From UHGV virus genome UHGV-0090450: 56,302 nt of DNA. One strand, written 5' to 3'. Of the stretch, positions 16,252 to 56,252 are shown one piece after another. The position numbers and the translations under genes are program-made. Within the stretch, counting starts at the first letter, position 1. Each line of letters opens with the position of its first letter. The notes under the pieces are model-generated. The model was not told the origin of the DNA. It searched no databases and was given only the letters and a program-made list of their open reading frames with translations. The stretch comes from a virus.

Positions 16252-16262
16252 CTGAGGTAATT

Positions 16263-18314: not shown

Positions 18315-18328
18315 TCAGGAGAAATACG

Positions 18329-19534: not shown

Positions 19535-19582
19535 TCACTCAGGGGCGCGGAACCGCGCCCCTGTTCTGACGGGTGAAGAATC

Positions 19583-19783: not shown

Positions 19784-19785
19784 GT

Positions 19786-20516: not shown

Positions 20517-20997
20517 TGTTCAGCAGCCCGCCGAGATGCGCTTTAACCGCGCCCGTGTCCGGCGGGCGTTTGTCACGATTGGGCAGCGTCATATGCGTGA
20601 TGCCCGTCGGCTGGTGATGCGCCGTGCGCGGTCGGCACCGGGTGAAAACCCCGGTTATCAGACCGGACGCCTGGCTCGTTCGATTGGTTATATGGTGCCG
20701 AGAGCCAGTAAAAAGCGAGCCGGTTTTATGACACGCATTGCCCCTAACCAGCGCAACGGGAAGGGGAACCGGATGATCTCTGGTGACTTCTATCCGGCGT
20801 TTCTGTTTTTTGGTGTCCGGGGAGGAGCAAAACGTCGTCGTAGTCATCATCGTGGTGCATCCGGTGGCAGCGGCTGGCGACTGGCTCCACGTAATAACTT
20901 CATGGTGGAAACGCTTGAAAAGAACCGCAGCTGGACACGCTATTTTCTGGCGCGGGAATTGCGTAAATCACTGAAGCCGGAGCGACGACACAGATGA
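20491..20997 (+). CDS. HK97 gp10-like neck/tail-completion protein
   Basis: Position and sequence character. Confidence 0.65.
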   Translation: MATPFFHVDVQQPAEMRFNRARVRRAFVTIGQRHMRDARRLVMRRARSAPGENPGYQTGRLARSIGYMVPRASKKRAGFMTRIAPNQRNGKGNRMISGDFYPAFLFFGVRGGAKRRRSHHRGASGGSGWRLAPRNNFMVETLEKNRSWTRYFLARELRKSLKPERRHR

Positions 20998-21554
20998 AAC
21001 TGACGCCTGTTATTGCTGCACTGCGTGCCCGTTGTCCGTATTTTGAAAACCGGGTTGCAGGCGCGGCCCAGTTCAAAAATCTGCCGGAGGTCGGAAAGCT
21101 GAAACTCCCGGCGGCATATGTTGTACCGGGTGATGATTCTCCGGGAGAAAACAAAAGCCAGACCGACTACTGGCAGGAGCTGAAAGAGGGTTTCTCCGTG
21201 GTTGTCATACTGAGTAACGGGCGTGATGAGCGCGGTCAGTTTGCCTCGTATGATGTGGTGGACGATGTCCGGCAGATGCTCTTTAAGGCTCTGCTGGGCT
21301 GGAACCCGGAGGCGTGCGGTAACCCGATTACCTATGACGGCGGCACGCTGCTGGATCTGAATCGTCATGAGCTGATTTATCAGTTCGATTTTTCGGTCAT
21401 CAGCGAGCTGACTGAAGACGATACCCGCCAGCAGGATGATCTGAACAGTCTGGATGAACTGCAAACGCTGGCGATTGATGTTGATTATCTCGAGCCCGGT
21501 AACGGGCCTGACGGCGATATCGAACATCACACCGAAATAACCCTTCCTTCCTGA
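20994..21554 (+). CDS. neck/tail terminator-like protein
   Basis: Position before sheath module. Confidence 0.55.
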   Translation: MKLTPVIAALRARCPYFENRVAGAAQFKNLPEVGKLKLPAAYVVPGDDSPGENKSQTDYWQELKEGFSVVVILSNGRDERGQFASYDVVDDVRQMLFKALLGWNPEACGNPITYDGGTLLDLNRHELIYQFDFSVISELTEDDTRQQDDLNSLDELQTLAIDVDYLEPGNGPDGDIEHHTEITLPS

Positions 21555-21562
21555 GGATCCTC

Positions 21563-21733
21563 ATGTTTGTCAAACCTGTTAAAGGGCGGTCAGTGCCTGA
21601 CCCTGCCCGCGGCGACCTTTTGCCCGCCGAAGGGCGAAATGTTGACGAGAACAACTACTGGCTGCGCCGTGAAGCAGCGGGTGATATCCGGCGCGTGAAT
21701 AAAAAGGTGAACACCGATGACGATAAGCTTTAA
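21563..21733 (+). CDS. small protein (56 aa, MFVKP..., Mu gp38/DUF2635-like) not in ORF track
   Basis: ATG at 21563, open to TAA at 21731-21733, overlaps sheath start. Confidence 0.5.
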   Translation: MFVKPVKGRSVPDPARGDLLPAEGRNVDENNYWLRREAAGDIRRVNKKVNTDDDKL

Positions 21734-23213
21734 CACCATTCCGTCGAATACGCTGGTTCCGTTGTTTTATGCGGAAATGGATAACCAGGCGGCGAATACT
21801 GCACAGGACAGCGGAGCATCGCTGCTGATTGGTCATGCCAATAACGGTGCAGAGATTGTTGCCAACAGTCTGGTACTGATGCCGTCGGCAGACTATGCAC
21901 GCCAGATTTGTGGTGCGGGAAGTCAGCTGGCGCGTATGGTCGAGGCTTATCGCCAGACCGACCCGTTTGGCGAGCTGTATGTGATTGCCGTTCCGGAAGC
22001 CACAGGAGCGGCGGCAACGGTTACGCTGACGGTGACCGGGGCGGCAACCGAAACCGGCACGGTGAATGTTTATGTGGGACGTACCCGCGTGCAGGCACCG
22101 GTGACCAACGGCGATAACGTCGCGACGATTGCCAGCAGTATCAAAGATGCCATTAATGCCGTTCCGGCCCTGCCGTTTACGGCCTCATCTTCGGCAGGCG
22201 TGGTCATGCTGACCGCGCGTCATAAGGGGCTTTGCGGGAATGAAATTCCTGTCAGCCTCAATTACTACGGCTTCGGTGGGGGCGAAGTGCTGCCAGCAGG
22301 CGTACAGATTGCCGTGGCGACGGGGACCACCGGAACGGGCGCTCCGGTTCTCACCGGCGCGGTAGCTGCAATGGCGGATGAGCCGTTTGATTATATCGGT
22401 CTGCCGTTCAACGACACGGCCTCCCTTAACACGCTGGTGACCGAGATGAACGATACCAGCGGTCGCTGGAGCTATGCGCGTCAGCTGTATGGCCATGTGT
22501 ATACGGCAAAGATCGGCACGCTGTCAGAACTGGTGACCGCAGGTGACCAGTTTAACCAGCAGCACATTACCCTGGCGGGGTACGAAAAAGACACCCAGAC
22601 GCCTGCCGATGAGCTGGCGGCAAGCCGTACCGCCCGCGCAGCGGTGTTTATCCGCAACGATCCGGCACGTCCCACGCAGACCGGTGAGCTGGTGGGTATG
22701 CTGCCTGCGCCGAAGGGGAAACGGTTCACGATGACCGAACAACAGACCCTGCTGTCTCATGGCGTGGCAACGGCGTATGTCGAAAGCGGGGTACTGCGCA
22801 TTCAGCGTGATGTCACCACGTACAGGAAAAACGCTTACGGGGTTGCGGATAACAGCTACCTCGACAGCGAGACGCTGCATACCAGTGCGTATGTACTGCG
22901 CAAACTGAAATCCGTCATTACCAGTAAGTACGGGCGTCACAAGCTTGCCAGCGACGGTACCCGCTTTGGTCCCGGTCAGGCGATTGTCACCCCGGCGGTG
23001 ATCAAAGGGGAACTGCTGGCAACCTACCGTCAGCTTGAGCGTGCGGGGATCGTGGAAAACTACGAACTGTTTAAGCAGTACCTGGTTGTGGAGCGTGATG
23101 CCAGCGATTCGAACCGCCTGAACACGCTGTTCCCGCCTGACTATGTTAACCAGTTGCGTGTCTTTGCCGTGGTTAACCAGTTCCGTCTTCAGTATTCAGA
23201 GGAGTCTGCATAA
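21717..23213 (+). CDS. tail sheath protein (Mu L-like)
   Basis: 498 aa, followed by tube gene. Confidence 0.9.
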   Translation: MTISFNTIPSNTLVPLFYAEMDNQAANTAQDSGASLLIGHANNGAEIVANSLVLMPSADYARQICGAGSQLARMVEAYRQTDPFGELYVIAVPEATGAAATVTLTVTGAATETGTVNVYVGRTRVQAPVTNGDNVATIASSIKDAINAVPALPFTASSSAGVVMLTARHKGLCGNEIPVSLNYYGFGGGEVLPAGVQIAVATGTTGTGAPVLTGAVAAMADEPFDYIGLPFNDTASLNTLVTEMNDTSGRWSYARQLYGHVYTAKIGTLSELVTAGDQFNQQHITLAGYEKDTQTPADELAASRTARAAVFIRNDPARPTQTGELVGMLPAPKGKRFTMTEQQTLLSHGVATAYVESGVLRIQRDVTTYRKNAYGVADNSYLDSETLHTSAYVLRKLKSVITSKYGRHKLASDGTRFGPGQAIVTPAVIKGELLATYRQLERAGIVENYELFKQYLVVERDASDSNRLNTLFPPDYVNQLRVFAVVNQFRLQYSEESA

Positions 23214-23569
23214 TGGCCCGTATCGGGGGAACCTGTTATTTCAAAATTGACGGTCAGCAGCTATCGCTGACCGGCGGCATTGAGGTGCCCATGAACAGGA
23301 CGGTCAATGATGACATCATCGGCCTGGACGGTTCAGTGGACCGCAAGGAAACTCACCGTGCGCCTTATGTCAAAGGGACCTTCAAGGTGCCGAAGAATTT
23401 TCCGGTGAGCAAAATCACCTCGTCTGATGAGATGACCATCACTGCCGAGCTGGCGAACGGTCAGGTCTATGTACTGTCGTCCGCCTGGCTGCACGGCGAA
23501 GCGAACCATAATGCCGAAGAAGGCACGGTTGATCTTGAGTTCCACGGTGAAGAAGGGGATTACCAGTAA
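23213..23569 (+). CDS. tail tube protein (Mu M-like)
   Basis: 118 aa directly after sheath. Confidence 0.85.
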   Translation: MARIGGTCYFKIDGQQLSLTGGIEVPMNRTVNDDIIGLDGSVDRKETHRAPYVKGTFKVPKNFPVSKITSSDEMTITAELANGQVYVLSSAWLHGEANHNAEEGTVDLEFHGEEGDYQ

Positions 23570-23838
23570 TGAAAGAGCTTGAGTTAAAGAAACCGATTAT
23601 CGCTCATGGCGAGACACTCTCCGTACTGGAGTTTGATGAACCCACCGGGAAGGATGTCCGCGAGCTGGGGTATCCCTACCAGATGAATCAGGATGAGTCC
23701 GTCAGACTTCTGGCGCATGTGGTGTCGAAATACATTGTGCGGCTGGCGAAAGTGCCGCAAAGCTCTGTCGACCAGATGTCTCCGGCAGACCTGAATGCAG
23801 CGGCGTGGCTTGTGGCTGGTTTTTTCCTCCAGGCCTGA
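23569..23838 (+). CDS. tail assembly chaperone (short form)
   Basis: Small ORF between tube and tape measure. Confidence 0.7.
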   Translation: MKELELKKPIIAHGETLSVLEFDEPTGKDVRELGYPYQMNQDESVRLLAHVVSKYIVRLAKVPQSSVDQMSPADLNAAAWLVAGFFLQA

Positions 23839-23987
23839 CGGCTGAATACCTCACTGATCGCTTCTTTGACTGCGCCAGCTACTGGCGCATTAATCCCTTC
23901 GAATTGCTGAATATGCCGATCAGTGAAATTCCCTTGCTGGTCAGTCAGGCAAACAGGATAGAGCAGGAGAAACGCACACATGGCTGA
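23569..23987 (+). other. putative -1 programmed frameshift fusion product of the tail chaperone
   Basis: Slippery heptamer T-TTT-TTC at about 23821-23827; -1 frame (track ORF 23805-23987) stays open to the tape-measure start. Confidence 0.5.
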
Positions 23988-25812
23988 ATTTGAGCTTAAG
24001 GCGTTGATCACCGGTGTCGACAGGCTTTCTCCCGCGCTGTCGAAAATGCAAAAGAAAATCCGGGGATTTAAACGCCAGGCGGAAGAAGCGTCACAGGGTG
24101 GGCTGGCGCTTGGTGGCGGACTGGCAGCGGGTCTGACGCTTTCCCTGAAATCTTATGCCGATCAGGAAAACGCCGCCACCGGGCTGAAAGTCGCCATGAT
24201 GGATGCGAACGGCGAGGTTGGAAAGAGCTTTCAGGACATCAATAAACTGGCTATTGGCCTGGGTAACCAGCTACCCGGTACAACGGCTGATTTCCAGAAC
24301 ATGATGCAGATGCTGGTGCGTCAGGGGATCCCGGCAGAAAACATTCTTGGTGGTGTGGGTAAAGCGACAGCTTATCTTGCGGTACAACTGAAAAAAACAC
24401 CGGAAGCGGCTGCTGAGTTTGCTGCAAAGATGCAGGATGCTACCGGAACGGCCTCAGAAGACATGATGGGGCTGTTCGACACAATTCAGAAGGCGTTTTA
24501 TCTGGGCGTTGACGACACCAACATGTTGTCATTCTTCACTAAAACCAGCTCTGTTCTGAAGATGGTGAACAAGGACGGTCTTCAGGCTGCACAGAGTCTT
24601 GCCCCCATCAGCGTCATGATGGATCAGATGGGGATGAACGGGGAGTCGGCAGGTAATGCCCTGCGAAAAGTTATCCAGTCCGGATTAAGCGTTAAGAAAA
24701 TCAGGGACGTCAATAAAATCATGGCCCGCCAGAAACTCGGGGTACAGCTCGATTTTACTGATGGCAAAGGGAGTTTTGGCGGTCTTGATAACATGTTTAA
24801 GCAACTGGCAAAGCTGCGAAAACTTACCGACGTTAAGCGAACAGGTGTACTTAAGGCAATATTTGGTGATGATGCCGAAACCCTTCAGGTGGTCAATGCG
24901 CTGATCGATAAAGGAAAGGATGGCTACGATCAGATCCAGCAGAAGATGAATAAACAGGCCAGCCTGAATAAACGTGTTCAGGCTCAGCTTGGTACGCTGT
25001 CCAACCTGTGGGAGGCAATGACGGGGACCGCAACTAACGGCCTTGCGGCTATTGGCGGCGCATTTTCTGGTGACGCTAAGAACATCACGCAGTGGCTGGG
25101 GGAGTTGGGGGAGAAATTCACGAAGTTTGCGGATGAAAATCCCCGGGTTATTCGCGGCGTCGTCGGGCTTGCTGCCGGTCTTGCGATTCTGAAACTGGGA
25201 TTGATGGGCGTTGGCGGTGCCATCAGTATTGTCAGCAGGATCATGTCGATGACGCCGATTGGCATGATTGCGACGGCGATAGCCCTGGCTGCGGGATTAA
25301 TTATCACTAACTGGGATGTTGTCGGACCTTATTTTAAGAAACTCTGGGAAACCATTGGTCCTTATTTTGAGGCTGGCTGGGAACTCCTTAAGAAAGTTTT
25401 TGCCTGGTCGCCGCTGGGGATGGTGATCAATAACTGGGGGCCGGTTGTTAAGTGGTTTCAGGATATGTGGGACAAGCTGAAGCCAATTATTGAGTGGTTT
25501 ACCGACAGTTCCGGTGACACGGTCGATGCCATTAACTCTGCGCAGTGGGGCGCGGGTGCTTATGATGCTTATGGGACGGGAATACCGGCGCGGGGATACA
25601 CACCTTATCCGGCGGTGGATCTGGCTCAGTCAAACAACGCCTCCGATGCCACAGCCCCGAATCCCTTCATGATTAACAAAGCTTCTGCGCCAAAAGTTGA
25701 TGGTGAGATCAAGGTCTCTTTTGTGAATTCGCCTCCGGGTATGCGGGTTATGGAAACACGTTCTAGTGACATTGATATTAATCACGATGTTGGGTACACC
25801 AGATTTAGGTAA
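23980..25812 (+). CDS. tail tape measure protein
   Basis: 610 aa, Ala/Gly-rich, hydrophobic central region. Confidence 0.9.
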   Translation: MAEFELKALITGVDRLSPALSKMQKKIRGFKRQAEEASQGGLALGGGLAAGLTLSLKSYADQENAATGLKVAMMDANGEVGKSFQDINKLAIGLGNQLPGTTADFQNMMQMLVRQGIPAENILGGVGKATAYLAVQLKKTPEAAAEFAAKMQDATGTASEDMMGLFDTIQKAFYLGVDDTNMLSFFTKTSSVLKMVNKDGLQAAQSLAPISVMMDQMGMNGESAGNALRKVIQSGLSVKKIRDVNKIMARQKLGVQLDFTDGKGSFGGLDNMFKQLAKLRKLTDVKRTGVLKAIFGDDAETLQVVNALIDKGKDGYDQIQQKMNKQASLNKRVQAQLGTLSNLWEAMTGTATNGLAAIGGAFSGDAKNITQWLGELGEKFTKFADENPRVIRGVVGLAAGLAILKLGLMGVGGAISIVSRIMSMTPIGMIATAIALAAGLIITNWDVVGPYFKKLWETIGPYFEAGWELLKKVFAWSPLGMVINNWGPVVKWFQDMWDKLKPIIEWFTDSSGDTVDAINSAQWGAGAYDAYGTGIPARGYTPYPAVDLAQSNNASDATAPNPFMINKASAPKVDGEIKVSFVNSPPGMRVMETRSSDIDINHDVGYTRFR

Positions 25813-40157: not shown

Positions 40158-40203
40158 ATTCGTAATGCGAAGGTCGTAGGTTCGACTCCTATTATCGGCA
40201 CCA
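40158..40203 (+). other. 3' fragment of tRNA-Thr (anticodon loop to CCA), att core
   Basis: ATTCGTAATGCGAAGGTCGTAGGTTCGACTCCTATTATCGGCACCA matches the 3' 46 nt of E. coli tRNA-Thr(CGU) as recalled; no matching 5' acceptor strand upstream. Confidence 0.7.
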
Positions 40204-40369: not shown

Positions 40370-41584
40370 GTGAAACTCAATGCCCGTCAAATAGACACTG
40401 CCAAGCCAAAAGAGAAGGCTTACAAGCTGGCTGATGGTGGTGGTCTGTATCTCTTGGTAAAACCTAGTGGAGGAAAATATTGGCGCTTCAAGTATCGTGT
40501 AGCTGGTAAAGAGAAGCTGTTAGCACTAGGTGTGTATCCTGAAGTTACCTTGGCTGATGCTCGTGCAAAACGTGAAGAAGCTAAAAGGGGTATCGCTGGG
40601 GGTATCGATCCGATGGAAGCGAAACGAGAGGAAAAGATTGCCCGGGAAACGCAGTTAAACAACACCTTCAAAGATATTGCCCTTGAGTGGCACAGCAGCA
40701 AATTAAAAAAATGGTCTGCTGGTTATGCTTCAGACATCCTCGAAGCCTTCAACAAAGATGTGTTCCCTTACATTGGCAAAAAACCAATCGCCGAAATCAA
40801 ACCACTTGAACTGCTGAATGTGCTGCGGCGCATCGAGGGGCGCGGTGCTACCGAAAAAGCCAAAAAAGTGAGGCAGCGATGTGGGGAAGTTTTCCGCTAT
40901 GCAATTGTCACTGGACGTGCTGAGTATAACCCTGCACCGGATCTCACCAGCGCGATGCAAGGTCATGAATCTAATCATTATCCTTTCCTCACAGCCAAAG
41001 AATTACCTGATTTTTTCAAGGCATTGTCCAGTTACTCAGGAAGTGCATTGGTTGTTATGGCGGCTCGTTTACTGATTATCACCGGTTTGCGGACTGGCGA
41101 ACTGCGCGGTGCATTATGGGATGAAATCGATCTCAACAAGGCTATCTGGGAGATACCTGCTTCACGGATGAAAATGCGTCGCCCTCATGTAGTGCCTTTG
41201 TCTGAGCAGGCTCTTTCGCTTATTGGGCAGATTAAAGAACTAACTGGCAATTATCCGCTTATGTTTCCCGGCCGTAATGATCCAAGGAAAACAATGAGCG
41301 AGGCTAGCATAAACCAAGTATTTAAACGCATCGGCTATAACGGAAAGGTTACTGGTCATGGCTTCCGGCACACTATGAGCACCATTTTGCATGAGCAGGG
41401 CTATAACACCGCGTGGATAGAGACACAGCTTGCGCACGTCGATAAAAACTCAATTCGTGGCACATACAACCATGCGCAATATCTGGATGGGCGGCGGGAA
41501 ATGCTTCAGTGGTACGCTGATTATATGGATTCGCTCGAGCATGGCGGAAATGTGGTGCATGGTGAGTTCGGAAAATGCGGGTGA
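40370..41584 (+). CDS. int: tyrosine integrase (P4 type, N-terminal arm-binding domain)
   Basis: N-terminus KLADGGGLYLLVKPSGGKYWRFKYR, C-terminal catalytic region (HGFRHT, LAH...RGTYNH); GTG start after GGAGG; adjacent to tRNA fragment. Confidence 0.9.
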   Translation: MKLNARQIDTAKPKEKAYKLADGGGLYLLVKPSGGKYWRFKYRVAGKEKLLALGVYPEVTLADARAKREEAKRGIAGGIDPMEAKREEKIARETQLNNTFKDIALEWHSSKLKKWSAGYASDILEAFNKDVFPYIGKKPIAEIKPLELLNVLRRIEGRGATEKAKKVRQRCGEVFRYAIVTGRAEYNPAPDLTSAMQGHESNHYPFLTAKELPDFFKALSSYSGSALVVMAARLLIITGLRTGELRGALWDEIDLNKAIWEIPASRMKMRRPHVVPLSEQALSLIGQIKELTGNYPLMFPGRNDPRKTMSEASINQVFKRIGYNGKVTGHGFRHTMSTILHEQGYNTAWIETQLAHVDKNSIRGTYNHAQYLDGRREMLQWYADYMDSLEHGGNVVHGEFGKCG

Positions 41585-41706
41585 CTGGTTGAGTATACAG
41601 TAGTAGACTTTGAGCGACGAAAGAAAAGGCTGTGTCTAGGGTCGCTCCCGAAAATCCGTACACCTCGACGGACTGGTACAGCCACTACAGTAGAGGACGC
41701 TGAGGT

Positions 41707-43424: not shown

Positions 43425-43742
43425 ATGTGTGCCGCGCTGGAGGCGTACCGGGCTGAACTGGGTAAAAACACACTCCAGCACCACTACACCACGGAAGCGA
43501 ACATGCTGGCGCGTATCGTGCTGGGTGGCATGACTGCAAAACAGTGGGCACTGGCGAACGGCATTACAGGCGAACCACGCGACCACATGAGCACGTTGCA
43601 GCTTGAGCACCTTTCTTACCTTGAGCAGAGCAATATCACGCTGATTGAGTTAGGCCAGGACTACCACCAGCGGAAGGCTGAATTAATTCGTCTTTCGCAG
43701 CGTTGGTTAGCCCGTCGCATGGAGGAAAACAGCCATGTGTAA
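43425..43742 (+). CDS. hypothetical protein (105 aa)
   Basis: ORF immediately downstream of antirepressor-like gene. Confidence 0.4.
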   Translation: MCAALEAYRAELGKNTLQHHYTTEANMLARIVLGGMTAKQWALANGITGEPRDHMSTLQLEHLSYLEQSNITLIELGQDYHQRKAELIRLSQRWLARRMEENSHV

Positions 43743-44414
43743 CGCTCTGACCGTTACAAAAAGAGAAAGCGCCCCGTTGCCGGAGCGCCTTTGTGAACGA
43801 ATAGCCTACTGCGCCATATTGCTTACTGTCTACGAGGCAGATTATAGCGTTGTGGTCGCACAGAGTGAAGGCGCTGATCACCGTTACTACAGCACGCCAG
43901 AAATGCAGAATATTTTGCTGCAAAATGTCGTTGGTCACACTGTCCGGAAAGCAAAAAATTTTGCTGGTGGCGCGACTGATGCGATTTTGTCAGGTCGCCA
44001 GGTGCTGATCAATCTGATGTCTAATTTCGTTCTGGATAAAACAAAGGCGACCGCAGAGGGCCACCAGTGGGAAAGCTACACACTTGAACACATCGCCAAC
44101 AATGCCAGATTTGCGGCTGGTGGGCAATGTGATCAGTGTGCTGGCTTGCTGGTGGGCTATTCCTGCTCTTTAACATTGCCATGCCGCGATGTTTTCCAGG
44201 TATGCGACCCCATTTTTGTGCGCCTGTACTCTTTAAGGAATTTCTCAAGGATAAACGCACAGGGCGCGAATCTGTCTGACTCATATTCGTACGCTATCTT
44301 TCTGCGCTGTCTTTTCCGTGCCGGTGATGGTGTATTGGTCGATTCTTTGTTGGTCATTCTGTGTACCTGTAAAGCAATGCGCCGGAGTTCCTCACACCAC
44401 GGCGATGATAGTTA

Positions 44415-44720
44415 TTATTCTGATTCTTTGGCCTTGCGGCGCTGGAGTTCTTCACGTGCGACGGTGACGAGCTGCCCGATCTCCTCGACAGCTTTGACTC
44501 CGATTTTTTCTACCTGCGCCAGTGCATTGAGCGAAGAAACCAGGGGATTTTCTCCGCTTCCTTCTGCCTGGCGGCGGGCGATCTCACCACGCATGGCGGT
44601 TACTATGAATCCGGCGTTGCTTTCGCCGTCCAGTTTTACGGATTCCATGCCTTCAAAAGCATCATGTGGGATACGAATTGAAATCTGTTTTGATTTGTCG
44701 TTGATAGTGTTTTTTGCCAT
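44415..44720 (-). CDS. hypothetical small protein (about 101 aa), possible regulator
   Basis: ATG (MAKNTIND) preceded by AGGAGA; track ORF extends to 44759. Confidence 0.45.
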   Translation of the reverse strand: MAKNTINDKSKQISIRIPHDAFEGMESVKLDGESNAGFIVTAMRGEIARRQAEGSGENPLVSSLNALAQVEKIGVKAVEEIGQLVTVAREELQRRKAKESE

Positions 44721-44907
44721 GTGCATTCTCCTAAACAAAAGATGTGATTCAGTATACACAAAAAAGAATCACAAAAAATACTTGACCTGTGATTCAGTTA
44801 AATTTAATTTAAATCACACCTCAGTAAGAGGATATAAACGACAACGCCCCGAACTGTTTGCGGCAGTAGCGGGGCGTCTAACCAAACCGTTAAATGAGGT
44901 AACGATT

Positions 44908-45273
44908 ATGGCTGGGGCACAGCATACCCAAACTCACCCTAAATTTATATACACCTTCCTGGCGGTGCACCGTGATTGCATGGCTGACGGTAAAAACACT
45001 GTTCATGTAGCCGCCGATACGCTGGTTGATGCCTGCGAGATGCTCAATGACATGGGCTATATCTCGGCAACATGGAAAGGGCGCGAAGAAAACACGTTGT
45101 TTATTCAGAAATGCGAAAACAATTTTATCTGGCGTTTTATCGCCCTGAGTACGGCACAACCGCGCGTGATTCACATCGAGGCCACCAGCGAACAGGAAGC
45201 ACGCCAGCAATCTCCTGATGGCTGCGTGATGGTATTCGCTGCCCGTATTCGCCAGGAGGTGGAGCATGTGTAA
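44908..45273 (+). CDS. hypothetical protein (about 121 aa)
   Basis: ATG at 44908 (MAGAQHTQTHPKF) preceded by GAGGT; protein-like composition unlike the upstream part of track ORF 43735-45273. Confidence 0.45.
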   Translation: MAGAQHTQTHPKFIYTFLAVHRDCMADGKNTVHVAADTLVDACEMLNDMGYISATWKGREENTLFIQKCENNFIWRFIALSTAQPRVIHIEATSEQEARQQSPDGCVMVFAARIRQEVEHV

Positions 45274-46271: not shown

Positions 46272-46562
46272 ATGAAAAGGAAAAATTCTGGCTTTACTGC
46301 CAGCGGTCTCTCTCGGCCTGAAATCAGACACGGAGATATTTACCGCGACACCAGACGTGGGGGACGAGTGGTTATTCGTCACGTTACGCCAGGCAATATC
46401 ACCTACCGCCGTGAGGCTTACGAATATGACTGCGTAATGCCGCGCCGTCAGTTTGAGCGTGATTTTATTCTGGTGGAAAACAAACAACAGGCAGTGGCGA
46501 GACGTGCAGCCACGAATATTAAAAAAATCCGGGCAATGTTGGTTGCGGGAGGTAAGAAGTGA
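46272..46562 (+). CDS. hypothetical small basic protein
   Basis: ORF overlapping primase start. Confidence 0.45.
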   Translation: MKRKNSGFTASGLSRPEIRHGDIYRDTRRGGRVVIRHVTPGNITYRREAYEYDCVMPRRQFERDFILVENKQQAVARRAATNIKKIRAMLVAGGKK

Positions 46563-48364
46563 AAAACGCACCGAATTTAAAATATCAGCCGAAGGATAAA
46601 TTCACCGAGGTAATCATTTTTGCCGGGACGGATGCTTACGCCCATGCTCAACACTGGATTGAAAGCGAAGGACGAAAACACGGCGATAACGTGCCTCCTG
46701 TTTACCTGGGGCCAAAGCAACTGGCAGACCTGGCGAATATCCGCATTGTCGACGATGAACGCCGCTTTGCGCGTGTCTATCTCGCGGGGGAGATAGAGCC
46801 AATCCAGATCAATGCTATTGCTGAAAAGCTGGCGCTGGCTGGTGTACAGGACGCGAAATTATACAAAGGTATCACCGACCGGGAGCCGGAAAACTGGCGC
46901 GACTACCTGCAACGGATCCGCGAACAGGCAGAGAGTGGGGAAGTTTCAGCGATGAAATTAGCCACAAAAAATATTGACCTATCCAGGCCAGCACTAAATC
47001 AGATGGGAGCCAGCCAGAGAGGGGAAGTGTTACTTGAATATTATGGAAGAGCACTGGCTATAAATGATGATTCTGATGTAGTTCACCATTACAACGGAAT
47101 TGTCTGGGTGCCTGTATCTGATAAGGAACTCCAGCGGTCTATGGCGAAGATTTTTATTGATGCTGGAATCAGTTATTCGCAAAACGCCATTAAATTTGCC
47201 GTAGACACAATGAAATTGAGCCTGCCTGTTATGGGCGGGGCAGACAGGAATCTTATTGGATTCAGTAACGGGGTATTTGATACCCGGACGGGAAATTTTC
47301 GGGAGCATAACAAAAATGACTGGTTGTTAAATGCCAGTGAATTACCGTTCAGCCCACCAGCAGAGGGGGAAACGCTGGCAACACATGCGCCGAATTTCTG
47401 GAAGTGGCTGCGTCGTTCGGTGGCAGATAATGATCGTAAAGCTGATCGCGTACTGGCGGCATTATTCATGGTGCTGGCGAACCGGTACGACTGGCAGTTA
47501 TTCCTTGAGGTAACAGGCCCAGGCGGAAGCGGTAAAAGTGTGATGGCTGAGATTTGTACCATGCTGGCGGGTAAGGCCAACACAGTATCGGCAAGCATGA
47601 AGGCTCTGGAAGACGCAAGGGAACGCGCGTTAGTAGTTGGCTTTTCGCTGATTATCATGCCGGATATGACTCGCTACGCTGGCGATGGTGCAGGAATTAA
47701 GGCAATTACTGGCGGCGACAAGGTGGCAATTGATCCGAAACATAAAGCCCCCTACTCCACACGTATTCCGGCAGTAGTGCTTGCGGTAAACAATAACGCC
47801 ATGTCATTCAGTGACCGAAGCGGGGGGATCTCGCGTCGTAGGGTGATATTTAATTTCTCTGAGGTCGTACCGGAGAACGAACGCGATCCCATGCTGGCGG
47901 AAAAGATAGAAGGCGAACTGGCGGTAGTGATTCGCCATTTGCTAACACGATTTACCGACCAGGACGAAGCTAAAAGACTACTTTATGAGCAGCAAAAATC
48001 AGAAGAAGCGCTGTTGATAAAGCGCGAAGGTGATTCACTGGTGGACTTTTGCGGCTATCTGATGTCGTTGGTTAAATGTGAAGGAATGATGGTGGGCAAT
48101 GCGGAAATAGTGCCATTTAGCCCGAGGCGATACCTGTATCATGCTTATTTAGCCTATATGTCAGCGCATGGCCTGGGAAAACCAGTATCACTGACACGCT
48201 TTGGTACTGATATGCCAGGAGCTATGGCGGAATACGGAAAGGAGTATAAGCGGGCTAAATGCACTAAAGGCCCGGATAAAGGGCGAGTGATAACAAATGT
48301 TCTGTTAGATGATGATGCTGATGGCTGGTTGCCAGCAGCTACAGGGATTAACGACAGAACATAA
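46559..48364 (+). CDS. primase / replication protein (P4 alpha-like)
   Basis: 601 aa; Walker A-like GPGGSGKS in C-terminal half; followed by iteron origin. Confidence 0.85.
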   Translation: MKNAPNLKYQPKDKFTEVIIFAGTDAYAHAQHWIESEGRKHGDNVPPVYLGPKQLADLANIRIVDDERRFARVYLAGEIEPIQINAIAEKLALAGVQDAKLYKGITDREPENWRDYLQRIREQAESGEVSAMKLATKNIDLSRPALNQMGASQRGEVLLEYYGRALAINDDSDVVHHYNGIVWVPVSDKELQRSMAKIFIDAGISYSQNAIKFAVDTMKLSLPVMGGADRNLIGFSNGVFDTRTGNFREHNKNDWLLNASELPFSPPAEGETLATHAPNFWKWLRRSVADNDRKADRVLAALFMVLANRYDWQLFLEVTGPGGSGKSVMAEICTMLAGKANTVSASMKALEDARERALVVGFSLIIMPDMTRYAGDGAGIKAITGGDKVAIDPKHKAPYSTRIPAVVLAVNNNAMSFSDRSGGISRRRVIFNFSEVVPENERDPMLAEKIEGELAVVIRHLLTRFTDQDEAKRLLYEQQKSEEALLIKREGDSLVDFCGYLMSLVKCEGMMVGNAEIVPFSPRRYLYHAYLAYMSAHGLGKPVSLTRFGTDMPGAMAEYGKEYKRAKCTKGPDKGRVITNVLLDDDADGWLPAATGINDRT

Positions 48365-48735: not shown

Positions 48736-49278
48736 ATGGGGCAAAGCATGACTAAGCTGACCATTAACAGAAAACCAAAAGGTATTTACGGCACGCCGCA
48801 GAAAACGACGCAGGCGGCACAGGAGCAGGATAAAACCACATCGGCGCATAAAGTGATGCCCGGTAACCAGAAAGCGCAGCAGAAGCCTACAGGGGCGACA
48901 CCGTGGCGGCATATGACCAAACGCCAGCGCAAAAACCGCAGGCGCGTTAACCGCCTCACTGAGTTGTGGCCTGACTTATTCAGCCGGGAAGCACTGAAGC
49001 CGCTTAAGGTGGGGATATTCGACGACCTGATGCAGGATCTCGCCGTCAGGGGGCTGGCATTCGGGCCAGGGGCATTGCGTGCGACGCTGGCATCTTATGC
49101 GCAGTGTCCGCGCTATTACCGCGCCTTAATGGCTGGTGGGGTACGCTACGACCTGAAAGGCCAGCCGTGCGGCGAGGTGACACCACAGGAACAACAGGAC
49201 GCAGAAACGCGGCTGGTGGCGCTGAATGAGAAGCGCAAACGCCAGCGCCGGGCAGCAAAGGAGACAATAGGCGCATGA
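48736..49278 (+). CDS. FinO/ProQ-like RNA-binding protein
   Basis: LKPLKVGIFDDL and CPRYYRALMAGGVRYDLKGQPCGEVT match the FinO/ProQ domain pattern as recalled. Confidence 0.6.
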   Translation: MGQSMTKLTINRKPKGIYGTPQKTTQAAQEQDKTTSAHKVMPGNQKAQQKPTGATPWRHMTKRQRKNRRRVNRLTELWPDLFSREALKPLKVGIFDDLMQDLAVRGLAFGPGALRATLASYAQCPRYYRALMAGGVRYDLKGQPCGEVTPQEQQDAETRLVALNEKRKRQRRAAKETIGA

Positions 49279-49562
49279 TTCACGACAGCAAAGCGGAAGC
49301 ACTGGAAGCGCGTGGTCTGTACCGGAGAGCGGCGGCGCGGTGGGCTGAGGTCATCATGCTGGCGAATGATGACAAGGCACGGGAACAGGCGGCAAAACGT
49401 CGCGCGGAATGTATCCACAAGGCAGCACGCCCACCAGCAAGGCAGGATAATTTCGGGGAGATGCGCGAAACCATCAGCCGGGCACATGCCGGGATGGGAT
49501 TACATCAGCCCAATGGTGAGGCATTCAGGAAATACCAAAAAAAGAACAATTGTAGTCAGTAA
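49275..49562 (+). CDS. PerC-family regulator-like protein
   Basis: LEARGLYRRAAARW motif; paralogous to 5217-5711. Confidence 0.55.
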   Translation: MIHDSKAEALEARGLYRRAAARWAEVIMLANDDKAREQAAKRRAECIHKAARPPARQDNFGEMRETISRAHAGMGLHQPNGEAFRKYQKKNNCSQ

Positions 49563-49696
49563 CAGAGGATGGGATTCTCTTGGTTTTTTGTTGATGCTTT
49601 CTGAGGAAATCTACTACGTTGCTGAGCAGATGAATATTCAATTGCATCTGGGTTCCTGATAAGATTAATCTGAATATTTTCATTTGGAATAGGGAT

Positions 49697-50839
49697 ATGA
49701 ATAAAACTTTAATTGCAACATTAGTCGGTATAGTAATGTTAACCGGATGTGGGCCAGAAGAGTTAACTCCAGAACAGAAACAGGAAGTAGCTGCTCTTAA
49801 AGCTGAACTGTCGCAAACGGAAGGTGAAATATCAGCAGCTAAGGAAGTTGACCAGCAGTTTTCTGGTGGGTTGATAAAAAATCTGACAACAGCAAGACTG
49901 GAAATATTAGGAACTAATAAAGCGCTTTTGGAACAGCGTATTAATGCTATTGAATCAGGTGCCAAAATTGATGTTGTTGTATCTGGAGTAAAACCTGATC
50001 CTGAGCTTGCGGCTTCAATTAAAACTGAAATTGACAGCTTAGATGCAAAAATCAACGAAGCCAAAGCTGATGCTCGTCAGTATAGTGGTGGTCTGATAAA
50101 GGTACTAAAATTATCTACTGTTGCCACTGAAGAGCAGACCATGGCAATGTTGCAGCAAAAGTACCTCACAGCCAAGTATGGCCTCGCTGAAGTTAAGCTG
50201 GCATCAGTACAAGCTAATGACGCAAAAAACAGTACTGAAACGGAAGTAACAGCCAAAAATTCCCAAGAGCAACTTCCTTTACTCCCGCCAGCGGATGGTC
50301 CGTTTGGCTTAGAAGCCGGTCTTACACAGAAAAACATCGAAGATATGATCGGTGCTAAGCTCAAGCCACTACCAGACAGTGTGAATCTGTATACTTCTGA
50401 TAAATTACCGAAGCAAAACGCAGATTTTGAAATGTATGGTTTGCTGATCTCCCCGAAAGCTGGTTTATGTCAAATACGGGCTTTAGGAAAAAATATTGAT
50501 ACTGATAGCTATGGATTGGCTCTTAAATCCAAGTTTGAAGAATTGAGTAATTCTTTAAGTTCTCTGTATGGAAAGGCTGATACTACAGACTTTTTGCTGG
50601 CTGGTTCAATTTGGAAAGATCCTCAGGACTGGATGAGGGGGCTAAACAAAAAAGAACGCTTCTTATCTGCCACATGGAAGGGAACAAAAGAAATACCATT
50701 AAAAAACAATATTGATACTATATCTATTGAGGCCAGAGCGAACAATTCCACTCAGGGATATGTCTATCTGCAGTACTCATTTACAAATGACGAAATTTGT
50801 CAGGCAGAAATTGAAGGGGCGAAAAAAAGTTCCCTTTAA
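49697..50839 (+). CDS. lipoprotein with internal duplication (380 aa)
   Basis: Signal/lipobox LTGC; repeated QFSGGLIKNL / QYSGGLIKVL segments. Confidence 0.6.
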   Translation: MNKTLIATLVGIVMLTGCGPEELTPEQKQEVAALKAELSQTEGEISAAKEVDQQFSGGLIKNLTTARLEILGTNKALLEQRINAIESGAKIDVVVSGVKPDPELAASIKTEIDSLDAKINEAKADARQYSGGLIKVLKLSTVATEEQTMAMLQQKYLTAKYGLAEVKLASVQANDAKNSTETEVTAKNSQEQLPLLPPADGPFGLEAGLTQKNIEDMIGAKLKPLPDSVNLYTSDKLPKQNADFEMYGLLISPKAGLCQIRALGKNIDTDSYGLALKSKFEELSNSLSSLYGKADTTDFLLAGSIWKDPQDWMRGLNKKERFLSATWKGTKEIPLKNNIDTISIEARANNSTQGYVYLQYSFTNDEICQAEIEGAKKSSL

Positions 50840-50850
50840 ACAATCCGTGC

Positions 50851-50880
50851 AAAGCCCCTTAGTAAGGGGCTTTTATATAT
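50851..50880 (+). terminator. rho-independent terminator (AAAGCCCCTT-AGTA-AGGGGCTTT + T/A-rich)
   Basis: Perfect stem after lipoprotein stop. Confidence 0.55.
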
Positions 50881-50903: not shown

Positions 50904-51227
50904 ATGAAAGATAATCTAGCAAAACTAATTGAAAATACTTTAAAAGATATTCTATTAGCTAATGCTGCTCTAACATTCATTTTTGCAATACCAATGGCTA
51001 TTATCAGTAGGCATGGGATGGGCATCACAATCTGGTTTATAACTGTGCTCATTGCACCTGCTCTGTGTGCAGTAGGTGCATGGCTTGTATCTCGAACATC
51101 CGGCCATGCTGAGGAGTTCTTTCATCGTCGGTGGGCTAAGCGAATTTATGTTTTTTATACTCTTGCGGCTGCCGAGTTTTTGCTTGTGTACTCAATCGCG
51201 CAAATAATGAAAAATCTGATGAAATAA
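50904..51227 (+). CDS. small membrane protein (about 3 TM segments)
   Basis: Hydrophobic ORF. Confidence 0.5.
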   Translation: MKDNLAKLIENTLKDILLANAALTFIFAIPMAIISRHGMGITIWFITVLIAPALCAVGAWLVSRTSGHAEEFFHRRWAKRIYVFYTLAAAEFLLVYSIAQIMKNLMK

Positions 51228-54653: not shown

Positions 54654-56252
54654 ATGAGCGTGGCAATAAAAACAATGACACCAGTGTCATATTCTATAAA
54701 AGTTGATGCGATTAAGAAAAGATTGTCATATTTTAGTGATGTTTCTTTTTTGAGAAATTTTTATGAACACTTCCAAAAAGTAAGGGATGTCGAGGTGGGT
54801 ATTGTTTCCAATTTCCCTTGGTGTTGCTATCTGGCAATGAAATGGAAGTTTTGCATGAAGGAAAAAAAGCCTGCAAAAGAAATGAGTAAAAATGATTTTG
54901 TTGATATTATCAACTTAATCTATAACTTGCAACTAGAAGCATCTAATTTAATCGTTGATGATAAAGTTATGCTAAGCCTTAGACGAATGGTGATAAATCA
55001 GTTGCTTTATCAATCAACTGATAAATTTAATGCCAATTCATTAACAAGACAGTATATTTGGTATTGCTTGAATGATGAATCATATTATAAAGATAAGTTT
55101 TTAGAATGTACTGGTTTACATTTGGAAAACTATTACAAAATGGCATGTTATTTTACCGCTATTTCATGTATTAATCCTGATATAGAATCAGAGGTTATTC
55201 CATTTAAACACTTGATAATAAACTTGGTTCCGATATTTGGTCCGGAACAAGTGAAAAGATTTTTGGAATTAACATGCTTAAAAATTGATGGTGTGAGAGA
55301 TTTTATTGCCCCATATAAATTGGATAAAAACATTACCGCTGAGTATTATGAAGATACACCATTCCTCAGTAAACCAATGTTTTTAGATGGCGATGGTGTA
55401 GTGATATTATGCAAAAGAATCATGAAGTCAGGGTTTGTCAACCTAGTTCCAGAATTGTTCAAGCAGGTCTATAAGGAATCTTATAAAGAAAAATTTGGTA
55501 AGACGATGGAACTTTATATTTCTCGCTTTCTTGATAAGTACAATTATAACTTTAAGACTGAAAGGGAGGTTAAGAGGATTTATAGTGATAATGCAATAAA
55601 AAATTGCAAGTCCGTAGATTTTGTTATTTCAGAGGGAGATTCAATAGTTTATATTGACTCGAAGGCAATAGAGCCTGCAAAGTTCGTTAAAACATCTAAT
55701 AATGCTCAGTTGCTAAAGGAAAGGTTGAATAAGAGTTTTATTAAAGGGATTTATCAAGGTCAGGAATGTGCTTTTAACTTAAATAAAATAGAGATGAGAA
55801 AACCATCTTCGAAAGATTCAATGTTAATTGTGGTGCATCGGGATCATCATATATCAAATGCAATGGTTGTGCAGGATTTTATTAACCCTGATTTATCAAC
55901 TGAGTTATCTGAAAAATATCATAGTATCCCCATTAATCTAAAAAGAATTTACTATATAACAATTGATGAGTTCGAATTATTACTTATGATGTGTAAACAG
56001 AAAGAACTATCTATTAATGAGTTTATTGATATGTGTGTGGAAAAAGATTCATTCCCTCATACTCAGAAGTCTAATCTAAGCATGCACATATATGAATTTG
56101 CACCAGAGGGTATTGATGATGATCAATTGATTGTAAAAGGAAGAGACTTACTGATTGATGATGTTATTGAAAATATGAAAGAGAGTGCATCAAAATGGTC
56201 TGGGAAAGTTGATATGTATCTTAAAATAAAAGATTATATTTTTAATTGGTAA
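54654..56252 (+). CDS. large AT-rich orphan protein (532 aa), possible PD-(D/E)xK-like motif
   Basis: Long clean ORF at about 30 percent GC; segment SVDFVISEGDSIVYIDSKAIE fits D...(D/E)xK pattern. Confidence 0.6.
   Translation: MSVAIKTMTPVSYSIKVDAIKKRLSYFSDVSFLRNFYEHFQKVRDVEVGIVSNFPWCCYLAMKWKFCMKEKKPAKEMSKNDFVDIINLIYNLQLEASNLIVDDKVMLSLRRMVINQLLYQSTDKFNANSLTRQYIWYCLNDESYYKDKFLECTGLHLENYYKMACYFTAISCINPDIESEVIPFKHLIINLVPIFGPEQVKRFLELTCLKIDGVRDFIAPYKLDKNITAEYYEDTPFLSKPMFLDGDGVVILCKRIMKSGFVNLVPELFKQVYKESYKEKFGKTMELYISRFLDKYNYNFKTEREVKRIYSDNAIKNCKSVDFVISEGDSIVYIDSKAIEPAKFVKTSNNAQLLKERLNKSFIKGIYQGQECAFNLNKIEMRKPSSKDSMLIVVHRDHHISNAMVVQDFINPDLSTELSEKYHSIPINLKRIYYITIDEFELLLMMCKQKELSINEFIDMCVEKDSFPHTQKSNLSMHIYEFAPEGIDDDQLIVKGRDLLIDDVIENMKESASKWSGKVDMYLKIKDYIFNW

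What the first reader, a model, noticed from the sequence alone, without database searches (positions are those of the whole stretch)
49697..50839. Satellite-encoded lipoprotein with an internal tandem duplication
380-aa protein with lipobox LTGC and two homologous segments (QFSGGLIKNL and QYSGGLIKVL regions), ending in a strong terminator. It is a likely envelope protein expressed from the integrated element, a possible receptor-masking or exclusion factor.
Basis: partly seen in the sequence, partly recalled or inferred. Interest (0 to 1): 0.35.

Follow-up and report, generated by a model that had tools for sequence, protein, structure and literature searches.

The report
Satellite-borne periplasmic lipoprotein, uncharacterised moron family
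The gene is real and encodes a strongly conserved envelope lipoprotein of an unnamed family that phage satellites and lambda-like prophages carry, often right beside the tail tape-measure gene. This makes it a good but untested candidate for a protein that stops other phages from injecting their DNA.

Summary
ORF 49697-50839 (+) encodes a 380-aa protein with a canonical lipobox (LTGC, Cys18, Gly at +2), an ancient internal duplication (HHalign 98%, E 1.5e-13) and an intrinsic terminator. It lies in the late zone of a PICI-type island (int, AlpA-like HTH, AntA, Icd-like, primase, ProQ, PerC) at thrW in E. coli, behind an SfII-like prophage.

The protein has three parts: an N-terminal module of two helical hairpins, a variable linker, and a 185-aa alpha/beta head (pLDDT 96.5). 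The head has no Pfam, NCBIfam, PADLOC or PDB relative. Both modules also occur alone in many phyla. Selection is strongly purifying (omega about 0.05), and the gene survives in decayed islands.

The main new finding is positional. Relatives are single-gene insertions with their own terminator next to the tape-measure gene of lambda/HK97-like prophages. That is the slot of the HK97 gp15 exclusion moron. Related PICIs carry the lipoprotein together with a tape-measure gene.

The best-supported reading is a moron captured by a satellite that acts in the periplasm, most likely blocking phage DNA entry. That function is inferred, not shown. Masking of an outer-membrane receptor is less likely.

The parts
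49653..49696 (+). Conserved 5' leader that travels with the gene. It contains a 10-bp perfect palindrome, AGATTAATCT (49662-49671), and a purine-rich ribosome-binding region.
   Evidence: Alignment of upstream regions from PICI, decayed-island and prophage-tail copies. Most relatives have GGATTAATCC, so both outer positions changed together in E. coli. No good sigma-70 promoter was predicted. Function unknown.
49697..49750 (+). Lipoprotein signal peptide, residues 1-18, lipobox L15-T16-G17-C18
   Evidence: Gly at +2 predicts Lol-dependent sorting to the outer membrane. That prediction rests on the E. coli +2 rule, not on a test here.
49751..49972 (+). Repeat 1 of the N-terminal module (residues 19-92): helix, QFSGGLI turn, helix
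   Evidence: Omega is 0.02-0.03 for the whole N module.
49973..50200 (+). Repeat 2 of the N-terminal module (residues 93-168): helix, QYSGGLI turn, helix
50201..50281 (+). Variable, predicted disordered linker (residues 169-195), ending in the conserved PLLPP motif
   Evidence: pLDDT below 50 for 162-194. Non-conserved columns. Omega 0.18-0.37.
50282..50839 (+). C-terminal alpha/beta head domain (residues 196-380) plus stop codon. It carries the GPFGL motif and two invariant cysteines, C258 and C368 (probable disulfide).
   Evidence: AlphaFold model pLDDT 96.5, pTM 0.90. No PDB fold match, TM <= 0.42. BFVD match to a temperate Erwinia phage lipoprotein, E 1.1e-6, TM 0.61. Occurs alone in many phyla.
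50851..50880 (+). Intrinsic terminator of the lipoprotein gene
   Evidence: Equivalent terminators lie between the lipoprotein stop and the tape-measure start in prophage copies and after HK97 gene 15.
40158..40203 (+). 3' fragment of tRNA-Thr (thrW), marking the left junction of the island
40370..41584 (+). Tyrosine integrase of the island (integration zone)
   Evidence: Pfam Arm-DNA-bind_3, Phage_int_M and Phage_integrase
41629..41696 (+). int-alpA RNA motif (Rfam RF02996)
   Evidence: 45.5 bits against a gathering score of 35.8
46559..48364 (+). Primase/helicase (D5_N, DUF5906, Pox_D5), the replication zone
48736..49562 (+). ProQ/FinO-family gene (48736-49278) and PerC-family regulator gene (49275-49562), directly upstream. 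GC is 59% and 56%, against 40% for the lipoprotein gene.
50904..51227 (+). 107-aa hydrophobic protein, about three membrane helices judged by eye. Co-inherited with the lipoprotein in E. coli and Klebsiella.
   Evidence: No family hit. Not conserved next to more distant relatives.

Best explanation
What it is (shown): a single-gene cargo unit with its own leader and its own terminator, and 40% GC against 56-59% for the genes upstream. It sits in the late zone of a PICI-type satellite island at thrW.

It encodes a lipoprotein in three parts. First comes an N-terminal module of two duplicated helical hairpins. A flexible linker of about 30 residues follows. The last part is a 185-aa alpha/beta head with two conserved cysteines.

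The family is unnamed and widespread. Both modules also exist alone. The gene is under strong purifying selection and survives when the island decays.

Relatives are inserted next to the tape-measure gene in the tail operon of lambda/HK97-like prophages. Related PICIs hold the lipoprotein together with a tape-measure gene. The most economical origin is therefore a tail-operon moron that the satellite captured.

How it most likely works (inferred): Lgt, LspA and Lnt lipidate the protein, and Lol sends it to the inner leaflet of the outer membrane (Gly at +2). The head is oxidised to a disulfide. Hairpin module and head hang into the periplasm on the linker.

There the protein meets the tip or tape-measure protein of an incoming siphovirus tail, or the host factor that the tail uses, and stops channel formation and DNA entry. 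Adsorption would be unaffected. This would protect the host, the satellite and any resident prophage from competing phages.
For: Gene, lipobox, repeats and terminator.

Island architecture. It matches the four-zone Gram-negative PICI scheme, in which the late zone captures helper late genes (PMC10111431). IMG/VR lists the same element as viral contigs.

Composition: 40.2% GC against 58.6% (ProQ gene) and 55.6% (PerC gene).

Structure. Modularity.

Purifying selection: omega about 0.05 overall, 0.02-0.03 for the N module, 0.04-0.06 for the head. Retention in decayed thrW islands of Klebsiella and Enterobacter bugandensis, and as a lone chromosomal gene in Pantoea.

Tail-operon position:
- Erwinia persicina prophage: tail tube, chaperone, lipoprotein, terminator, tape measure, M, L, K, I, J.
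- Pseudocitrobacter: tape measure, lipoprotein, M, L, K, I, J.
- Xenorhabdus: head-only lipoprotein, then tape measure.
- 11 of 24 clusters of full-length relatives have a co-oriented tape-measure gene within 3 kb, as do 15 of 74 clusters overall. Gaps are as small as 3-64 nt.
- The Erwinia tape measure is 55% identical to those of HK022/HK140.
- HK97 has chaperone, gp15 'moron product', terminator, tape measure in the same order. gp15 is a superinfection-exclusion protein that blocks genome injection (PMC3594210).

Precedent for the mechanism: the lipoprotein Ltp of phage TP-J34 has a lipid anchor, a spacer and a repeat domain, and it blocks DNA injection by binding the tape-measure protein (PMC3952083).

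Fold: the head matches a lipoprotein of the temperate Erwinia phage Midgardsormr38 (E 1.1e-6, TM 0.61).

PICI relatives with lipoprotein plus a TMP_3 tape-measure gene.
Against: - No experiment and no expression data exist; nothing was found in the literature.
- The protein is not homologous to any known exclusion or defence protein.
- Position next to a tape-measure gene may only mark a permissive insertion site. The neighbouring tape-measure proteins belong to at least three Pfam families (TMP_2, TMP_3, Tape_meas_lam_C), so no specific pairing is evident.
- Tail-operon morons can also be virulence genes.
- Head-only homologues occur in phyla and contexts with no phage genes nearby and no conserved partner. 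That suggests a more general periplasmic activity.
- Very strong purifying selection, and near-identity among 112 E. coli copies, are not the signature of an arms race.
- No copy is found in 50,697 sequenced phage records.
- No convincing sigma-70 promoter is predicted.
Confidence: 0.38

Rival explanations
1. Periplasmic immunity or inhibitor protein. The head domain neutralises an envelope-acting toxin or enzyme, such as a type VI secretion effector, a colicin, a lysozyme or another peptidoglycan hydrolase. Mobile elements would carry it as an orphan immunity gene. This parallels the lysozyme inhibitors, which come in soluble (PliC) and lipoprotein (MliC) forms.
For: - The head occurs as a soluble periplasmic protein, a lipoprotein and an inner-membrane-anchored protein in many phyla. 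That fits a widely conserved target.
- It is a solitary gene with no conserved partner, scattered among mobile-element and defence genes.
- In one relative the N module is fused to a VasI type VI secretion domain. Another relative is annotated in its record as peptidoglycan-binding.
- Weak fold resemblance to Tsi3 and to Eag/DUF1795 proteins.
Against: - The fold matches are not significant (E >= 0.009, TM <= 0.42).
- There is no Pfam hit to MliC, Ivy or any immunity family.
- No toxin or secretion-system genes lie nearby in the window or in the sampled loci.
- This reading does not explain the recurrent position beside tape-measure genes.
Confidence: 0.15
2. Lysogenic-conversion factor unrelated to phages. 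It would be an envelope lipoprotein that improves host fitness or virulence through serum resistance, adhesion, or tolerance of bile or envelope stress. Bor, TraT/Iss and Lom are examples of this kind.
For: - The gene is retained under strong purifying selection in decayed islands and as a lone chromosomal gene.
- It is present in pathogenic lineages such as O104:H4, 55989 and APEC strains.
- It lies directly downstream of a PerC-family regulator. PerC-like proteins activate virulence promoters in EPEC and EHEC (as cited in PMC13612085).
- Tail-operon morons include virulence genes (PMC3594210).
Against: - No similarity to Bor, TraT, Lom or Ail.
- Homologues are common in environmental bacteria that are not pathogens, including Shewanella, Thiocapsa, Deferribacter and spirochaetes.
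- Soluble periplasmic forms cannot act at the cell surface.
Confidence: 0.15
3. Receptor masking. The outer-membrane lipoprotein binds the periplasmic face of an outer-membrane phage receptor and inactivates it, so that phages no longer adsorb. T5 Llp and Cor do this to FhuA.
For: - Sorting to the outer membrane is predicted.
- There is precedent for exclusion lipoproteins encoded next to tail genes (PMC9586334 is listed; Cor is described in PMC3594210).
Against: - No homology to Llp or Cor.
- The head also works from other anchors or with none, and it is found in phyla that lack the enterobacterial receptors.
- At 362 mature residues in two conserved modules, the protein is unlike the 60-80-residue receptor blockers. 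The size of Llp and Cor is from my own knowledge.
Confidence: 0.1
4. A late function of the element itself. Transcribed with the tail or late operon during lytic growth, it would act in the dying cell. It might keep progeny from injecting into debris or into already infected cells, or it might modulate the envelope or lysis.
For: - The gene is co-oriented with tail genes, with gaps of only 3-64 nt.
- It lies in the PICI late zone.
- Late-operon antitermination would read through its terminator. This is established knowledge of lambdoid late transcription, not tested here.
Against: - Its own terminator and conserved leader suggest autonomous expression.
- It is retained in decayed islands that can no longer be induced.
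- It is not in the lysis cassette and lacks spanin features: there is no C-terminal membrane helix.
Confidence: 0.1

Closest known systems
HK97 gp15 moron (superinfection exclusion; YebO-like inner-membrane protein)
   Same: Same genomic slot and same unit structure. A single extra gene with its own terminator sits between the tail assembly chaperone genes and the tape-measure gene of an HK97/HK022-type tail operon. The product is an envelope protein.
   Different: No sequence or structural relationship. gp15 is a 62-aa inner-membrane protein (189-nt CDS). This protein is a 380-aa two-module lipoprotein. Its function is untested.
Ltp of Streptococcus phage TP-J34 (exclusion lipoprotein that targets the tape-measure protein)
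   Same: Lipid anchor, then spacer, then tandem helical repeat domain on the outer side of the membrane. Encoded by a temperate phage. Blocks DNA injection through the tape-measure protein (PMC3952083). This is the mechanism proposed here.
   Different: - Gram-positive host.
- Ltp is encoded in the lysogeny module, not the tail operon.
- No detectable homology to any Pfam family.
- This protein has an extra 185-aa head.
T5 Llp and lambdoid Cor (receptor-blocking lipoproteins)
   Same: Phage-encoded outer-membrane lipoproteins encoded near tail or receptor-binding genes that exclude superinfecting phages.
   Different: They are much smaller and act on FhuA. No homology. The distribution of the head domain argues against a single outer-membrane receptor as target.
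Late-zone cargo of Gram-negative PICI satellites (Tommasini, Mageeney and Williams 2023)
   Same: The island has the order int / AlpA-type HTH, then the Bro zone (AntA, Ash, Icd-like), then primase, then the late zone. Its late zone holds a gene whose relatives are prophage late-operon genes.
   Different: The captured gene is not a virion gene but an exported lipoprotein. Mobilisation of this island by a helper is untested, and no attR repeat was found in strain 537-20.
Lipoprotein of Erwinia phage Midgardsormr38 (BFVD A0A5Q2F5G3)
   Same: Best structural match of the head domain: E 1.1e-6, TM 0.61-0.62, 177 aligned columns. It comes from a temperate siphovirus (PMC7317114).
   Different: Only 16% identity. 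It is itself uncharacterised, and its position in the phage genome could not be retrieved.

Membership tests
Bacterial lipoproteins (Lgt/LspA/Lnt substrates) | N-terminal signal peptide with a lipobox [LVI][ASTVI][GAS]C. Cys lies at position 15-35 and a K or R lies in the first 7 residues (PROSITE PS51257). | tested here: met
   LTGC with Cys18 and K3. 114 of 114 close homologues fit the rule. G17 and C18 are invariant.
Bacterial lipoproteins (Lgt/LspA/Lnt substrates) | Actual lipidation and membrane localisation | not testable with these tools
   Needs palmitate labelling, globomycin treatment and fractionation.
Moron (autonomous extra gene in a phage operon) | An extra gene between genes that are adjacent in related phages | tested here: met
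   Met in relatives: chaperone, lipoprotein, tape measure in the Erwinia prophage. HK97 has gp15 in that slot. Many IMG/VR loci show the same.
Moron (autonomous extra gene in a phage operon) | Own terminator and base composition different from the neighbours | tested here: met
   Terminator. GC 40% against 56-59% upstream.
Moron (autonomous extra gene in a phage operon) | Own promoter, with expression from the repressed element | tested here: inconclusive
   No good sigma-70 match upstream. A conserved 45-nt leader with a palindrome travels with the gene. No transcript data.
Gram-negative PICI satellite (the element that carries the gene) | Inward-facing integrase with an AlpA-type HTH, then a Bro-network zone, then a primase, then a late zone. 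No full set of virion genes. Size about 10-20 kb. | tested here: met
   int-alpA RNA motif. Scheme from PMC10111431.
Gram-negative PICI satellite (the element that carries the gene) | Flanking att direct repeats | tested here: not met
   The thrW 3' fragment is at the left junction. No second copy of 20-30 nt (up to 3 mismatches) was found in strain 537-20. The right end lies outside the window.
Gram-negative PICI satellite (the element that carries the gene) | Induction, replication and packaging by a helper phage | not testable with these tools
   Experimental.
Known exclusion or conversion lipoproteins (Llp, Cor, Ltp, TraT, Bor/Iss) | Sequence membership in the family | tested here: not met
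   No Pfam, NCBIfam, PHROG or PADLOC hit above noise. No PDB sequence hit.
Known anti-phage defence systems (PADLOC-DB 2.0) | Match to a defence-protein model | tested here: not met
   0 families.
Periplasmic lysozyme inhibitors and type VI immunity proteins (MliC/PliC, Ivy, Tsi) | Sequence or fold membership | tested here: not met
   No Pfam hit. Foldseek against Tsi3 and Eag: E >= 0.07-0.2, TM about 0.3-0.4.
PsbP/Mog1-like alpha-beta-alpha sandwich fold | TM-score above 0.5 to a member | tested here: not met
   Best against CyanoP/PsbP: TM 0.36-0.42, E >= 0.05.

The most novel reading that the evidence does not exclude
The protein founds a new, widespread family of periplasmic blockers of phage DNA entry. 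Temperate siphoviruses would keep it beside their tape-measure gene, and PICI satellites would have captured it. The highly conserved two-hairpin N module would be a previously unrecognised domain that traps tape-measure or tail-tip proteins. The 185-aa head would be a new fold, with free-standing versions protecting bacteria in many phyla.
Probability: 0.25. Interest if true: 0.65.

Novelty: new variant of a known kind. Interest (0 to 1): 0.45.

Why it matters
If the inference holds, this would be a new protein family and fold for superinfection exclusion in Gram-negative bacteria. It would act at the least understood step of siphovirus infection, the passage of the tape-measure protein and DNA through the periplasm.

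It would also be a concrete case of a satellite capturing a helper-type moron rather than a virion gene. The gene is carried by pathogenic E. coli lineages (O104:H4, 55989, APEC strains) and by common Klebsiella and Enterobacter lineages. It could therefore affect phage-therapy host range.

Even without the phage function, the work defines two unnamed, strongly conserved periplasmic domains with thousands of homologues. Both deserve a family definition.

Tried and rejected
- Family and structure searches gave nothing usable. This covers Pfam, NCBIfam, PHROGs and PADLOC on the whole protein, and PDB by sequence with the single protein and with a profile. Foldseek on the full-length model also gave nothing, because the model was of low confidence.
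- Foldseek on the high-confidence head model found no PDB match. The weak PsbP, START/Bet v 1, Tsi3 and Eag hits were rejected as not significant.
- I looked for a conserved partner gene next to head-only homologues. None was found.
- tblastn against 50,697 phage records, with the E. coli protein and with the Erwinia prophage protein, gave no match.
- Pfam scans of the alternative C-terminal domains fused to the N module found only one VasI hit. A profile search with the N module alone returned only unnamed proteins.
- Literature searches by protein accession and UniProt id found nothing.
- The genome position of the Midgardsormr38 lipoprotein could not be retrieved. The paper gives no accession.
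- A 512-aa ORF at 43735-45273 was considered as a real gene. I rejected it because its translation looks non-coding apart from the Icd-like end.
- The attR search failed.
- A spanin role was rejected: there is no C-terminal membrane helix and the gene is not in a lysis cassette.
Full report
**1. The observation**

The ORF 49697..50839 (+) exists as described: ATG start, 380 aa. It is identical to WP_001044338.1, annotated 'hypothetical protein', and to UniProt B7L408, named 'Lipoprotein'. The N-terminus MNKTLIATLVGIVMLTGC is a textbook lipoprotein signal. All 114 full-length close homologues satisfy a PROSITE PS51257-type rule, and all have Gly at +2. G17 and C18 are invariant in an alignment that reaches 61% identity.

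The internal duplication is real and old. Residues 19-92 against 93-168 score 76, where shuffles give 27 +/- 5 (z = 9.4). A profile-profile comparison of the two repeats across 66 family members gives 98% probability and E 1.5e-13, in register.

A stem-loop at 50851-50873 followed by TTTTATATAT is a good intrinsic terminator.

Residues 196-380 are a separate domain.

**2. The element**

The window is E. coli. Positions 1 to about 39.7 kb are an SfII/SfI/SfIV-like prophage (97% nucleotide identity over 9.5 kb). A 46-nt 3' fragment of tRNA-Thr (thrW) lies at 40158-40203.

An island of about 16 kb follows, 100% identical to the one in strain 537-20. Its gene order is:

- integrase
- an int-alpA RNA motif
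- an AlpA-type HTH gene
- AntA (frameshifted)
- an Icd-like gene
- a DUF4222 gene
- a D5_N/DUF5906 primase
- a ProQ/FinO-family gene
- a PerC-family gene
- the lipoprotein gene
- small genes
- a variable right end

This is the integration / Bro / replication / late-zone order described for Gram-negative PICI satellites. In that scheme the late zone is dynamic and captures helper prophage late genes (PMC10111431). Similar Enterobacter islands with AlpA, primase, Icd, PerC and ProQ are classed as PICIs (PMC13612085). IMG/VR holds 17 copies of the same element as viral contigs.

'Satellite-encoded' is therefore supported by architecture. Mobilisation is untested, and no attR repeat was found in strain 537-20.

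The lipoprotein gene is present in 112 of 5426 complete E. coli genomes, always chromosomal and at least 99% identical. The ProQ-PerC module is in 321 genomes. A related island at tRNA-Pro has a DUF1441 gene after PerC instead.

**3. The protein**

No Pfam, NCBIfam, PHROG, PADLOC or PDB-sequence hit rises above noise.

Homologues of about 380 aa occur throughout the Enterobacterales, all unnamed. An exhaustive profile search found 2867 representative proteins at E <= 1e-3.

The full-length AlphaFold model shows four features:

- Two helical hairpins: H25-52 with H59-86, and H102-126 with H133-161. The SGGL motifs form the turns.
- A disordered linker at 162-194.
- An alpha/beta C-terminal domain.

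Modelled alone with 66 diverse sequences, the head reaches pLDDT 96.5 and pTM 0.90. It has no significant match in the PDB (best E 0.009, TM <= 0.42). It does match a 'Lipoprotein' of the temperate Erwinia phage Midgardsormr38 in BFVD (E 1.1e-6, TM 0.61).

Two cysteines, C258 and C368, are invariant, which fits a periplasmic disulfide.

The two modules are separable. Among the top 150 representatives:

- 33 have the N module plus the head.
- 81 have the head alone, mostly behind a type I signal peptide that ends just before GPFGL.
- 35 have the N module alone or with other C-terminal domains.

About seven of the N-plus-head representatives are versions of roughly 500 aa in which the modules begin only at residue 140-240. 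P0144 has a hydrophobic stretch just before them, so I read these as inner-membrane-anchored forms. One relative fuses the N module to a VasI domain. Another is annotated as peptidoglycan-binding and sits on a Paracoccus plasmid next to a BREX system. The N module also exists alone as lipoproteins of 170-200 aa.

Selection is strongly purifying. Against Klebsiella, Pseudenterobacter and Pseudescherichia copies, omega is 0.05-0.07 overall. It is 0.02-0.03 for the N module, 0.04-0.06 for the head and 0.18-0.37 for the linker. The N module is therefore not a passive stalk.

**4. Genomic context of relatives: the key result**

In Enterobacter the 69%-identical protein lies directly after the primase of int-AlpA-AntA-Ash-primase islands at other att sites.

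In one-genome-per-species sampling, three species carry it inside lambda-like tail operons:

- Erwinia persicina: tail tube, chaperone, lipoprotein, tape measure, M, L, K, I, J.
- Pseudocitrobacter: chaperone, tape measure, lipoprotein, M, L, K, I, J.
- Xenorhabdus: head-only lipoprotein, then tape measure, M, L, K, I.

Across 121 sampled loci in 74 clusters at 90% identity, 15 clusters have a co-oriented tape-measure gene within 3 kb. That includes 11 of 24 clusters of full-length relatives. Gaps are as small as 3-64 nt.

The prophage copies carry their own terminator between the lipoprotein stop and the tape-measure start. A 45-nt leader with a palindrome travels with the gene in all contexts.

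The Erwinia tape measure is 55% identical to those of HK022 and HK140. HK97 has, in the same slot, chaperone, gp15 ('moron product'), terminator, tape measure. gp15 is the founding moron and a superinfection-exclusion protein that blocks genome injection (PMC3594210).

Some PICI-like relatives in Klebsiella and Enterobacter hold the lipoprotein plus a true TMP_3 tape-measure gene in their late zone. A Pantoea relative has a tape-measure-like gene that BLAST links to tape measures but that has no Pfam hit. This is what late-gene capture predicts.

In Klebsiella and Enterobacter bugandensis the gene survives in thrW islands that have lost integrase and primase. In Pantoea it is a lone chromosomal gene.

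Head-only homologues in Shewanella, Litorilituus and Thiocapsa lie in integrase, primase, TIR or Mrr islands. They have no conserved neighbour.

**5. Interpretation**

Shown:

- The product is an exported lipoprotein.
- It has two conserved modules.
- The gene is a self-contained unit, with 40% GC against 56-59% upstream.
- The unit moves between prophage tail operons, PICI late zones and chromosomes, and it is kept by selection.

Inferred:

- It is anchored in the outer membrane (the +2 rule) and faces the periplasm.
- It blocks entry of siphovirus DNA by meeting the incoming tail tip or tape-measure protein, or the host factor that they use.

Two precedents support the inference. HK97 gp15 occupies the same slot. 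The Gram-positive lipoprotein Ltp has a lipid anchor, a spacer and a repeat domain, and its target is the tape-measure protein (PMC3952083).

I put this at about 0.4. Positional analogy is not homology. The neighbouring tape-measure proteins belong to several families. The head-only proteins in distant phyla suggest a more general periplasmic activity. No expression or phenotype data exist.

The rivals are:

- An orphan periplasmic immunity or inhibitor protein.
- A conversion factor unrelated to phages.
- Receptor masking in the manner of Llp or Cor. This is less likely, because the head also works from other anchors or from none.
- A late function of the element itself.

**6. Novelty and score**

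The kind is known: a moron or satellite cargo gene that encodes an envelope lipoprotein and is a candidate exclusion factor. The family, both domains and the head fold are uncharacterised. The recurrent position beside tape-measure genes and the capture by PICIs have not, as far as I could find, been described.

I rate it a new variant of a known kind, with interest 0.45. It is directly testable with simple plating assays.

Noticed in passing
window 1-39700: An SfII/SfI/SfIV-like serotype-converting myovirus prophage (97% nucleotide identity over 14500-24000) occupies thrW. The PICI-like island follows in tandem after a 46-nt tRNA-Thr 3' fragment at 40158-40203.
   Followed up: partly
window 41629-41696: Rfam int-alpA RNA motif (RF02996, 45.5 bits) lies just after the integrase gene, upstream of the AlpA-type HTH gene.
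   Followed up: no
window 49653-49696: A conserved leader travels with the lipoprotein gene in every context. It holds a 10-bp perfect palindrome: AGATTAATCT in E. coli and GGATTAATCC in most relatives, so both outer positions changed together. It could be an operator or part of a promoter.
   Followed up: partly
window 54654-56252: A 532-aa ORF with about 30% GC sits at the right end of the island and has no Pfam or PADLOC hit. RefSeq splits it and names one part 'orthopoxvirus A36R protein', which is surely spurious. Strain 55989 has an AAA ATPase plus a DUF4435 protein in this slot, and other strains have GapS1. The slot therefore looks like a variable defence hotspot.
   Followed up: partly
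window 43735-45273: A 512-aa open frame on the + strand ends at the Icd-like gene. Apart from its C-terminus, its translation looks non-coding. RefSeq instead annotates small minus-strand genes there (YlcI/YnfO family). The AntA gene upstream is frameshifted.
   Followed up: partly
L091 7419-13383; L144 7001-12584; L020 9317-13825: PICI-like islands of Enterobacter and Klebsiella (primase upstream) carry the lipoprotein plus a genuine TMP_3 tape-measure gene 0.7-2 kb downstream in their late zone. In the Pantoea island L020 the 857-aa downstream gene has BLAST similarity to tape measures but no Pfam hit. Satellites that encode a tape measure deserve their own study.
   Followed up: partly
window 50904-51227: A 107-aa hydrophobic protein (about three membrane helices by eye) lies just downstream. 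It is co-inherited with the lipoprotein in E. coli and in the decayed Klebsiella island, but it is not found beside more distant relatives.
   Followed up: partly
L139-L142, L147-L148 (Klebsiella, Enterobacter bugandensis thrW locus): The lipoprotein gene stays intact in islands that have lost integrase and primase and carry IS elements. In some it sits beside KAP NTPase or OLD-family nuclease genes.
   Followed up: yes
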